Below are positions 6,260-8,430 of a stretch of 64,000 bases of DNA, in pieces. The position numbers were made by a program, and so were the translations under genes. Under the pieces are notes generated by a model. That model was given only the letters and a program-made list of their open reading frames with translations. It was not told the origin of the DNA and searched no databases. This stretch comes from Mobula birostris. Lineage: Eukaryota. The first letter of the stretch is position 1, and every line of letters starts with the position of its first letter. Location: assembly GCF_030028105.1 (NCBI RefSeq), contig NC_092377.1:78150569-78214568 (forward strand), in the 5' to 3' direction.

Positions 6260-8430
6260 CCCCCCTGCTGGTGGGCACTTAATTTGGACTCCACTTTGGT
6301 TGAACCCCTTCTGCCGGAGGCAGGCCCTCATGTGACTCTGTGCTGTGATCCTACAGGGTGCTCAACTGAGGAAAACCAGTATTATGCACCCCTCGAGGGA
6401 CAGTAGTTCCCAGTCACGGTGATTGGAGAGGTTAAAGGAAGAGAGGGCAGTGCATTACTGGCCGAAGTTCCGTATTTCCTTTGGTGACAGACAGGACTGG
6501 TGGCTCTCCATACCACTGTTAGGCTTTACCCTGGGTTCAAGCCAAAGAGTCTGGGTTCCTTGCCTACACTATGACGAAACAAGCCTCTAGCACCGAGGGT
6601 GACTGGCAAGACTTGGCCGCGGGCCAACTCCGATACTGGAAGGCATCAAAGGTGAAGACGGGACATCTGGTAAGACACTTGTTTAATACTGACCGAACTC
6701 AAGATGTTGTACCACATCGCTGGGAAATTTCAGGCCATGAAGTCGGTCGCACCAACTGCCCCCCACCCTCCGTCTAGATCACTGAAAGAAAGACAGACTC
6801 TCCCATCCCCTCCGCAATACCCTCTCAAGCCCGAGGTGACGTTTTATGAGGATGGAAGCTCTTTTGTGGATCCAGCAGGGAAACGATGCAGTAGTGTCAG
6901 ACAGTGAAGCAAATGAGCAGGCCTCTTTTGAAACAGCTGTCTCCACCCAGAAAGCTGAGCTGTTTGCTCTGACTCATGCCTGTATCCTGGCAACAGACTA
7001 AAGTGCAAACTTACAGACTCCCATTATGCACTGACTACGGAACTTTGGGGATTTCCTGACTTCTTTTGGCTACCCCATTATAATGCTACCTTTGTAAACA
7101 ACTTACTCATCGCTCTTCAGTTACCTTGAGTTTTGGCTATTATCGAATGTGCAGCCCATACTGGGGAATCTGAGATATCTATGGGCAATGCTCAGGCTGA
7201 TGTAGCAGTTAGACAAACTGCCTTGAATCCCACACTTTTAGTCCCCTCGGGAACCCAGCAAGCTCCTATTAGACAAAATCTAAGGACAGGTATGCCAGAC
7301 AAGGGGGAGATAAGTAACTAACAGGGGGACGTCCCTGAAGGAGAGCACAAACTACTGTCATAAATGGGTTGCCACCTTGAACCTCAGACCAATTTATGGG
7401 TGACCCCCGCGGGACAGGTTTGTGTTCCCTCTGTGTTCTTATCTGTCTTGATAGATTATGTAAATAATTGTACACACTTGAGCAAGGAGGGAATGGTTAA
7501 TATCTTGGTGGCGCCCTGATTTCCAGAAAGCAGCTGAAAAGTGAGCCACTGCATGTAAAAAAAATGAATGCTGGAAAGGGAATGCCTTGTGTTTCCAGAA
7601 CTACCCTGTTGCCTGGTGGACCTTTCTCCTGTTTACAACTTGATTTTATAGAACTACCTAGAGTACATTGTCGTAAATATTGCTTGGTACTAGTACATGT
7701 TTTTAGCAGATAAAGGTTATACCCGCTACTGATAATACTGTTGTAAAAATATTAAGAGAAGTGATTCCCTGTTATGGATTACCTGAATCAATAAGCTCAG
7801 ACAATGGACCTTATTTTATTGCTAAGATAAATGAGAAAATCTGTAAAGAACTGGCAATAAAACAGCAACTTCACCGTGCTCACCATCCAAGAGCAGCTGG
7901 TATAGTGGAACGAGCAAATGGAACCTTAAGGAATAAGCTAACCAAACTTATGCAAGAAACTGGGCTAACCTGGCTTAAGGTTTTATCTCTGGCATTGTTC
8001 CACATGAGAATCACACCCTCGACTAGAACTGCATTATCCCCAGCAGAAATCATCTATGGAAAGCCCATGCGAACCCCATGGGGGTTGGAACTGGCCCGAC
8101 CTCCCCTTCCTGAAAAGATGGATATGCATACCTTAGGGGAGGAGATGGGAAAATATTTATGCGAGTTAACTAAAACTCTCCAAAGCTTGCATTCACAGGT
8201 ACGACAGGCCTATCACGAGGACGACACCCAGCCTAAGGGTGACTACCCCACCATCGAGCCTGGAGATTTTGTCCTGATTAAGAACTGGGATCGTAAGAAG
8301 TTGGAACCGGGATGGAAAGAACTGTACCAAGTGCTACTGACAACACCTACTGCAGTGAAGGTGGAAGGGCAGCTCTGGTGGATACATCAAACGGACTGCA
8401 AACACGTTACTGGCGGAACTGATAAGGACT
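6260..8430 (+). pseudogene. ERV pol remnant: 2H-phosphoesterase-like domain, RT N-terminal stub fused to RNase H, integrase
   Basis: PHVTL..LHTTV..PKSLG. PPQYPLKPE joined directly to FYEDGSSFV. Integrase LQLDFIELP, SDNGPYF, GIVERANGTLRNKL and C-terminal YQVLLTTPTAVKV..WIH..CK (ORF 7761-8546). Confidence 0.85.

What the first reader, a model, noticed from the sequence alone, without database searches (positions are those of the whole stretch)
6260..6575. 2H-phosphoesterase-like domain in the ERV pol, upstream of RT
Seen: reading through two stops in one frame gives GPHVTLCCDPTG..YYAPLEGQ*FPVTVIGEVKGREGSALLAEVPYFLW*QTGLVALHTTVRLYPGFKPKSLG. This has two H-x-T motifs (6329, 6509) 60 codons apart, placed just before the RT start. 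Known: paired H-x-T/S motifs define the 2H superfamily, some fish retrovirus polyproteins carry such a domain, and coronavirus NS2 and rotavirus VP3 2H enzymes degrade 2-5A to antagonise OAS-RNase L. Inference: this retroviral lineage encoded a nucleotide phosphodiesterase, possibly an innate-immune antagonist or an RNA/tRNA end-processing enzyme. The ORF track splits it, so it is easy to miss.
Basis: partly seen in the sequence, partly recalled or inferred. Interest (0 to 1): 0.75.

Follow-up and report, generated by a model that had tools for sequence, protein, structure and literature searches.

The report
Compact CNPase domain in dead retrovirus
A dead endogenous retrovirus that has lost its reverse transcriptase still carries a small domain predicted to fold like the vertebrate enzyme CNPase; this kind of domain is already known from fish retroviruses, and it likely opened cyclic-phosphate RNA ends rather than destroying the immune messenger 2-5A.

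Summary
The reading is real: H-x-T motifs at 6329 and 6509, stops at 6404 and 6485. The domain runs on to about 6693 across a frame break and sits between protease and the start of RT. RT itself is deleted here (1317 bp missing against an RT-bearing copy), as in 37 of 38 informative copies. An uninterrupted natural copy folds confidently (pLDDT 88.7) and matches mouse CNPase at Z 14.8. The next hit is 7.0; the viral 2-5A enzymes score 6.3-6.9. The CNPase-specific helix after the second motif is present. CNPase/2H domains in fish retroviruses are in print, and this scan found them three times before in other genomes. What differs here is a compact form without the first helix, seen in shark, skate and ray elements and forming one branch on an RT tree. 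In this RT-less family the domain decays neutrally (pi0/pi4 0.99), so it is a passenger. Likely job in the ancestral virus: a Pol-borne 2',3'-cyclic-phosphate phosphodiesterase (untested). The 2-5A idea is less likely. Verdict: new variant of a known kind, modest interest.

The parts
1754..3135 (+). 5' LTR, split by an insertion at 1901-2759
   Evidence: 93% match to the 3' LTR in three blocks; K2P 0.068 over 513 bp; ends in CA before the PBS
1901..2759 (-). 3' piece of a LINE inserted in the 5' LTR
   Evidence: Pfam ALKBH8_N E 4e-8; reading that hit as the end of a Rex1/Babar-type LINE is recalled, not tested
3138..3155 (+). primer-binding site, tRNA-His type
   Evidence: 18 bases directly after the LTR; His assignment recalled; walleye epsilonretroviruses prime with tRNA-His (PMC3185748)
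4040..5400 (+). decayed gag region
   Evidence: by position; 73-85% DNA identity to RT-bearing copy L041 over 4200-5401; no Pfam hit
5405..6027 (+). 3' piece of a LINE inserted between gag and protease
   Evidence: absent from related copies; CR1/L2 type is recalled by eye, no Pfam hit
6141..6259 (+). C-terminal part of the protease; the catalytic N-terminal half was not found
   Evidence: tblastn to residues 90-130 of intact skate Pol P0007
6260..6693 (+). compact CNPase-like 2H phosphoesterase domain, about 144 codons, broken by stops at 6404 and 6485 and a frame break near 6553-6574
   Evidence: fold of an uninterrupted natural copy
6329..6340 (+). first H-x-T motif (HVTL)
6509..6520 (+). 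second H-x-T motif (HTTV)
6715..6836 (+). N-terminal stub of RT, ending at the deletion junction
   Evidence: window 6143-6836 matches L041 at 84%, then jumps 1317 bp; no match to RT core residues 342-745 of P0007
6837..7250 (+). RNase H, broken
   Evidence: tblastn to P0007 755-999; Pfam RNase_H only E 0.099
7570..8450 (+). integrase, broken
   Evidence: Pfam rve E 1.2e-5 and MLVIN_C E 4.8e-15
8500..8590 (+). short 5' stub of env; the rest is missing
   Evidence: by eye against the env-like stretch of L041; Pfam gave no hit to L041's env region
8639..9181 (+). 3' LTR, preceded by a purine tract at about 8626-8638

Best explanation
The stretch is a broken copy of a compact domain, predicted to have the CNPase type of 2H fold, that sits between protease and RT in the Pol of an epsilon-like retrovirus of cartilaginous fish and likely acted there as a 2',3'-cyclic-phosphate phosphodiesterase. 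Shown: the position in Pol, both H-x-T motifs, the breaks, the RT deletion and neutral decay in this family. Predicted: the fold, with CNPase as the clear best match. Inferred: in the autonomous ancestor the domain was made as part of Gag-Pol and packaged with RT. One His would activate water and the other would protonate the leaving ribose oxygen, as in CNPase, giving a 2'-phosphate and a free 3'-OH on cyclic nucleotides or on RNA ends cut by metal-independent host nucleases. That would protect or restore ends the virus needs, such as its tRNA primer. The copy in this window and its family lost RT and most of env and likely spread on a helper's enzymes, carrying the domain as a passenger. Odds: domain identity about 0.95, passenger status in this family about 0.85, cyclic-phosphate substrate about 0.6.
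For: Fold: AlphaFold model of natural copy L017, pLDDT 88.7, pTM 0.81. VIA-align: CNPase 2xmi Z 14.8, rmsd 3.0, 141 aligned; next 7.0. Foldseek: CNPase chains head the list at E 1e-5. Viral library: best hits are WEHV-1 and WDSV envelope polyproteins, E 3e-8 and 4e-6. The long form from a second ERV family of the genome gives Z 16.1 against 9.6. CNPase-type features: a helix starting 11 residues after the second His (H94-107) matches helix alpha7, described as absent in other 2H enzymes (PMC4643303). An aromatic residue at His1+5 (Phe235 position) is found in 27 of 30 and Gly at His2+15 in 30 of 30 rows of A3, as in the host's CNP exons. Deep conservation: both His in 30 of 30 rows of A3, whose non-family members are 22-42% identical to the first row; both H-x-T/S in 25 of 27 full-span longer proteins. 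Context: intact skate Pol P0007 has protease, this domain, RT, RNase H, integrase. CNPase can stand in for the cyclic-phosphodiesterase step of yeast tRNA ligase (PMC5434554). RT deletion in 37 of 38 informative loci of 50. pi0/pi4 0.99 in 34 distinct copies.
Against: No activity has been measured. Two CNPase residues are not kept: the Arg307 position is mostly small or hydrophobic and the Val321 position is Lys/Arg, so specificity may differ. Sequence-level similarity to host CNP is weak: hhalign probability 4%, E 0.01; 5 of 1000 shuffles score as high in the HMM test. Pfam CNPase hits none of 27 members, while other 2H families give weak hits (2_5_RNA_ligase2 6 of 27, LigT 3, Acb1 2 with best E 6.6e-4). 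The compact form lacks the first helix and could have lost or changed activity. The host has a seven-gene OAS1-like cluster, so 2-5A is probably made. The homologues were found with profiles built on these motifs, which inflates their conservation.
Confidence: 0.6

Rival explanations
1. The domain is a 2',5'-phosphodiesterase that destroys 2-5A and blocks OAS-RNase L, like MHV ns2 and rotavirus VP3.
For: Same superfamily. The 144-residue size equals the rotavirus VP3 domain (4rpt, Z 6.9). The host has seven tandem OAS1-like genes.
Against: Z 6.3-6.9 for the viral enzymes against 14.8 for CNPase. The CNPase-specific helix is present. The domain is widespread in teleost ERVs though teleosts are reported to have lost OAS1 (bioRxiv 10.1101/326454, one passage). 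Both ribonuclease-2-5A (KEN) hits in the genome look like IRE1 by eye (2 of 26 candidates scored); an exon-split RNase L could have been missed.
Confidence: 0.12
2. The domain degrades cyclic dinucleotides (cGAMP) and so blunts cGAS-STING sensing of reverse-transcribed DNA.
For: The best Pfam hit among members is Acb1 (E 6.6e-4, 2 of 27). Acb1 Z 6.0 and penguinpox cGAMP phosphodiesterase Z 5.4. It would suit a retrovirus in any fish (inference).
Against: These scores lie within the general 2H background, far below CNPase. Helix alpha7 is proposed to limit substrate size (PMC4643303).
Confidence: 0.13
3. The domain is non-catalytic: an RNA- or tRNA-binding module for RT, or a decoy against host CNP, which blocks retroviral assembly.
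For: Host CNP is interferon-induced and blocks HIV-1 Gag assembly (PMC10761555). The Arg307 and Val321 positions are changed.
Against: Both H-x-T/S motifs are kept across proteins about 20-45% identical. The antiviral determinants of CNP are residue 72 in the N-terminal part and the C-terminal prenyl site, which the viral domain does not contain.
Confidence: 0.1
4. The RT-less family kept the domain because it was still selected in cis.
For: The RT deletion is a multiple of three and leaves the frame open across the junction.
Against: pi0/pi4 is 0.99 for the domain, 0.87 for protease and 1.01 for RNase H. Variants shared by three or more copies are not rarer at 0-fold sites (33 of 195 against 3 of 43 at 4-fold sites). 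A sub-branch has lost His1 or His2.
Confidence: 0.1
5. The motif pair is chance.
For: 10 such pairs occur in the window; no Pfam hit to the window stretch.
Against: Fold, position and cross-species conservation.
Confidence: 0.01

Closest known systems
CNPase-encoding epsilon-like ERVs of ray-finned fish (Basta et al. 2009, not held; seen only as one sentence in PMC4977317)
   Same: A CNPase-like domain in an epsilon-like fish ERV; teleost Pol proteins carry a homologue between protease and RT.
   Different: The host is a cartilaginous fish. The form here is compact (first helix absent, motif spacing 60). The family is RT-less and the domain decays neutrally.
[quoted passage not shown] 2002, not held; seen as cited in PMC9503650 section 21)
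   Same: WEHV-1 and WDSV proteins are the best hits in the viral structure library.
   Different: In the walleye viruses the hit is in the envelope polyprotein, not Pol. WDSV Env has a cytoplasmic loop between residues 874 and 1045 (PMC3185748) of about the domain's size; that the domain is this loop is my inference.
Vertebrate CNPase catalytic domain (PDB 2xmi; Pfam PF05881)
   Same: Fold (Z 14.8, 141 of 144 residues aligned), two H-x-T motifs, aromatic at His1+5, helix and Gly after the second motif.
   Different: 144 against about 216 residues; motif spacing 60 against 79; the helices between strand 1 and motif 1 are missing; Arg307 and Val321 are not kept; no N-terminal kinase-like domain or prenyl tail; no Pfam hit.
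Viral 2',5'-phosphodiesterases (MHV ns2 4z5v, rotavirus VP3 4rpt) and Acb1
   Same: 2H superfamily, small size, viral.
   Different: Z only 6.0-6.9; they lack the CNPase helix alpha7 according to PMC4643303.

Membership tests
2H phosphoesterase superfamily | two H-x-T/S-hydrophobic motifs | tested here: met
   window 6329 and 6509; 28 of 34 distinct family copies keep both; 25 of 27 longer homologues
2H phosphoesterase superfamily | two-lobed 2H fold with each motif at the start of a strand | tested here: met
   model of natural copy L017: strands 23-28 and 83-88; the top 17 VIA rows are all 2H proteins
2H phosphoesterase superfamily | His-dependent phosphodiesterase activity | not testable with these tools
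   no assay
CNPase clade | best structural match is CNPase, well above other 2H clades | tested here: met
   Z 14.8, rmsd 3.0, 141 aligned, next 7.0; long form 16.1 against 9.6
CNPase clade | beta5-alpha7 loop and helix alpha7 after the second motif | tested here: met
   helix 94-107 begins at His2+11; loop residues 319-321 in CNPase are His309+10 to +12 (PMC4643303); judged from secondary structure and offsets, coordinates not inspected
CNPase clade | substrate-binding aromatics (Phe235, Tyr168) | tested here: met
   aromatic at His1+5 in 24 of 27 rows of A2 and 27 of 30 of A3; aromatic pair on strand 1 seen by eye
CNPase clade | Arg307 and Val321 | tested here: not met
   no Arg at His2-2 in 24 of 24 and 30 of 30 rows; His2+12 is Lys/Arg in all; offsets, not a structural superposition
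CNPase clade | sequence hit to Pfam CNPase or host CNP | tested here: inconclusive
   no Pfam CNPase hit in 27 members; hhalign 4%, E 0.01 to one host exon, with the second motif, Trp and Gly aligned
Viral 2',5'-phosphodiesterases (ns2/VP3/AKAP7 type) | closest structural kin are ns2, VP3, AKAP7 | tested here: not met
   they are listed but at Z 5.4-6.9, far below CNPase
Viral 2',5'-phosphodiesterases (ns2/VP3/AKAP7 type) | cleaves 2-5A; host has OAS and RNase L | tested here: inconclusive
   OAS1-like cluster present; only IRE1-like KEN exons found; cleavage not testable
Epsilon-like ERV | LTRs, PBS, gag-pro-pol order with RNase H before integrase | tested here: met
Epsilon-like ERV | RT phylogeny with named epsilonretroviruses | tested here: inconclusive
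   the RT tree holds only fish ERV proteins, no reference virus and no outgroup; the label rests on tRNA-His-type PBS, the MLVIN_C hit and the literature
Non-autonomous ERV | many dispersed copies share one deletion of an essential gene; an intact helper type exists | tested here: met
   37 of 38 informative loci share the junction; L041 keeps RT; 40 of 40 scored junction hits span it at 91-100% (the window included)

The most novel reading that the evidence does not exclude
Fish retroviruses captured the catalytic half of CNP, itself an interferon-induced antiretroviral protein, and deliver it inside the virion (in Pol, or on the cytoplasmic loop of Env) to heal 2',3'-cyclic-phosphate ends on the tRNA primer or genome. 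This would be a retroviral RNA-repair counter-defence like those of phages, and the shark-ray lineage would run it with the smallest known CNPase-type enzyme.
Probability: 0.22. Interest if true: 0.72.

Novelty: new variant of a known kind. Interest (0 to 1): 0.36.

Why it matters
The domain has been noted in fish retroviruses since 2002-2009, but my searches found no test of its activity. It is kept in retroviral Pol across sharks, rays and teleosts and turns up in Env in the walleye viruses, which points to a real job. A CNPase-type enzyme in a retrovirus would be an unusual accessory activity and could throw light on the still unclear natural substrate of CNPase. The compact form shows which helices of the CNPase fold can be dropped. 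This particular copy is dead and adds little beyond pointing to the family.

Tried and rejected
Pfam on the window stretch: no hit. Sequence search of PDB chains with two profiles: only chance hits to a designed binder. Single-sequence search for longer homologues: none among 295 candidates; profile searches then found 20 and 28. The ESM Atlas gave no result for two queries. Mazumder 2002, Basta 2009 and Zhang 2013 are not held. PMC8672886, PMC5210030 and PMC12690878 have no passage on CNP or phosphodiesterase. Expression: no RNA holder listed; the largest share was 0.10 and I did not lay reads. P0013 and P0015 were dropped as unrelated (SH3 repeats, simple repeat). P0060 covers only the C-terminal part and was left out of the 25 of 27 count. 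Rejected: that the 60-codon spacing is a deletion in this copy, since the spacing is 60-63 throughout the family. Rejected: that motif retention among genomic copies shows selection, since it is what neutral decay gives. The integrase value pi0/pi4 0.36 rests on 8 copies and may include other families; not relied on. No tRNA gene in the window. The PBS was not checked against host tRNA genes.

Full report
Observation. His codons lie at 6329 and 6509 and stops at 6404, 6485 and 6572. The motif pair by itself is weak evidence: the six frames of the window hold 186 such motifs and 10 pairs at 55-90 codons, and Pfam finds nothing in the stretch. Better-preserved copies show that the domain is about 144 residues long. 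In the window it continues past a frame break near 6553-6574 to about 6693.

The element. The stretch lies in a provirus with LTRs at 1754-3135 (split by an 860-bp LINE piece) and 8639-9181, K2P distance 0.068 over 513 bp. With the two rates used in PMC4422223 (first part of two read) this gives anything from about 15 to 155 million years, so the age is poorly fixed. A primer-binding site follows at 3138-3155 (tRNA-His type by recall, the primer of walleye epsilonretroviruses per PMC3185748). Then come decayed gag, a second LINE piece, the end of the protease, the domain, a stub of RT, RNase H, integrase and a stub of env. RT is deleted: against copy L041 the window jumps 1317 bp at 6836/6837. 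Of 50 loci examined (the window and L002-L050), both flanking motifs were found in 38. Of these, 37 have the short junction and one, L041, keeps RT. The family has at least 150 copies (150 of 359 candidates scored), many on one contig. It is therefore a non-autonomous family with an RT-bearing parent type.

Relatives. The representative search returned 13 proteins, 11 of them related. One, P0007 from a skate, is an uninterrupted Pol with protease, this domain, RT, RNase H and integrase. Other compact members come from a devil ray and a catshark. Profile searches added 20 and 28 proteins, many from teleosts, and a second, RT-bearing family in this genome (119 matches). Both H-x-T/S motifs are present in 25 of 27 full-span proteins; the other two keep both His. 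In alignment A3 both His are found in 30 of 30 rows. These hits were found by profiles that weight the motifs, so the figures lean high. There are two forms. The long form has a helix between the first strand and the first motif (residues 12-29). The compact form, which includes the window's, has only a loop there. On an unrooted RT tree of 25 rows the 6 compact-form elements form one side of a branch with support 100/99 (three near-duplicate skate proteins left out, no outgroup). Since CNPase and the long form have helices there, loss in the shark-ray lineage is the simpler reading (inference).

Fold. Natural copy L017 (78% identical to the window peptide) folds with pLDDT 88.7. VIA-align over 48,161 chains ranks mouse CNPase first, Z 14.8, rmsd 3.0, 141 residues aligned. 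Other 2H proteins follow at 7.0 and below, with rotavirus VP3 6.9, MHV ns2 6.3 and Acb1 6.0. Foldseek gives CNPase chains from E 1e-5. In the viral library the best hits are WEHV-1 and WDSV envelope polyproteins. The long form gives CNPase Z 16.1 against 9.6. PMC4643303 (sections 4 and 11 and passages read) describes helix alpha7 after the second motif as absent from other 2H enzymes and possibly fixing CNPase stereospecificity, and Phe235 and Tyr168 as needed for substrate binding. The model has a helix starting at His2+11, the family has an aromatic residue at His1+5 (24 of 27, 27 of 30) and Gly at His2+15 (23 of 24, 30 of 30), as does the host CNP gene. Against a plain CNPase copy: Arg307 is not kept, the Val321 position is Lys or Arg, and sequence similarity to one host CNP exon is marginal.

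Selection. In 34 copies under 96% identity (mean 88%), diversity at 0-fold over 4-fold sites, CpG sites left out, is 0.99 for the domain, 0.87 for protease (15 copies) and 1.01 for RNase H (21 copies). Shared variants are not depleted at 0-fold sites. Both motifs survive in 28 of 34 distinct copies and 30 of 50 loci, as neutral decay allows. In the RT-bearing long-form family the same ratio is 0.43 for the domain (14 copies, P 0.09 for shared variants), 0.73 for protease and 0.84 for the RT start. This is suggestive only, since those loci were the best-scoring hits. So the window's family carries the domain as a passenger, and the evidence for function comes from the deep comparison.

Likely mechanism. 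By position the domain is part of Gag-Pol and would enter the virion with RT (inference). By fold and motifs it would work like CNPase, opening 2',3'-cyclic phosphates to 2'-phosphate and 3'-OH (mechanism from PMC4643303). CNPase can replace the cyclic-phosphodiesterase step of yeast tRNA ligase (PMC5434554, passages), so action on RNA ends is plausible. In WDSV the envelope has a cytoplasmic loop of about 170 residues (PMC3185748, passages); if the domain is that loop, both placements face the virion interior (inference; the fold search does not give the matched range). I put the cyclic-phosphate reading at 0.6, cGAMP at 0.13, 2-5A at 0.12 and a non-catalytic role at 0.1. For 2-5A: the genome has seven tandem OAS1-like genes on one contig. 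Against it: the only KEN-domain exons found look like IRE1 by eye, and teleosts, whose ERVs carry the domain, are said to have lost OAS1 (bioRxiv 10.1101/326454, one passage). Host CNP is an interferon-induced blocker of HIV-1 assembly, but through parts that the viral domain lacks (PMC10761555, passages).

What is known. PMC9503650 (passages) states that 2H domains occur in a fish retrovirus and WDSV, citing Mazumder 2002. PMC4977317 (passages) states that epsilon-like ERVs of ray-finned fish sometimes encode a CNPase, citing Basta 2009. Neither original is held, so I cannot say whether they show compact or cartilaginous-fish forms. Searches (listings only, except papers named here) found no test of the domain's activity and no description of the compact form or of this RT-less family. 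Subscription papers and repeat databases were not searchable, and no supplements were read. PMC7157566 (passages) did not bear on the question. This scan noted the same kind of domain three times in other ray or cartilaginous-fish genomes; I had stated my reading before that look-up.

Verdict. Observation confirmed and extended; interpretation partly supported. It is a new variant (compact form, carried by an RT-less family) of a known kind, with an untested function. Interest 0.36.

Noticed in passing
window 21162-22196 (+): 345-codon open frame with a chaperonin domain (Pfam Cpn60_TCP1 E 5e-40); by recall it looks like the large exon of the host MKKS/BBS6 gene, 12 kb downstream of the provirus.
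   Followed up: partly
G000 contig C17: A large share of the family's best hits lie on this one contig as near-identical groups, some with His1 or His2 replaced; likely segmental amplification or a repeat-rich, perhaps sex-linked chromosome.
   Followed up: no
L034 (G000:C18:47201500-47211400): An RT-less copy sits inside an RT-bearing compact-form element on the opposite strand, splitting it just after the RT start.
   Followed up: partly
L041 (G000:C18:1676500-1686400): The one sampled close relative that keeps RT; it also has a decayed env-like stretch with a gamma-type transmembrane motif seen by eye, no Pfam hit.
   Followed up: partly
G000:C36:30618571-30907257: Seven tandem OAS1-like genes, two with a stop in a matched exon, plus a broken copy on C21, while no RNase L-like exon was found: OAS expansion possibly without RNase L.
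   Followed up: partly
L051-L065: A second, younger (about 95% identical) RT-bearing ERV family in the genome carries the long form of the domain with long open frames.
   Followed up: partly
window 6837 junction: The shared RT deletion is 1317 bp, a multiple of three, so the frame runs on from the RT stub into RNase H.
   Followed up: partly
P0037: A hake 'Gag-Pol' protein also appears to run from the 2H domain straight into an RNase H motif, hinting at an independent RT-less element in a teleost.
   Followed up: no
window 28719-29294 (+), 48059-48892 (-), 18038-18580 (-): LINE reverse-transcriptase fragments; ordinary.
   Followed up: no
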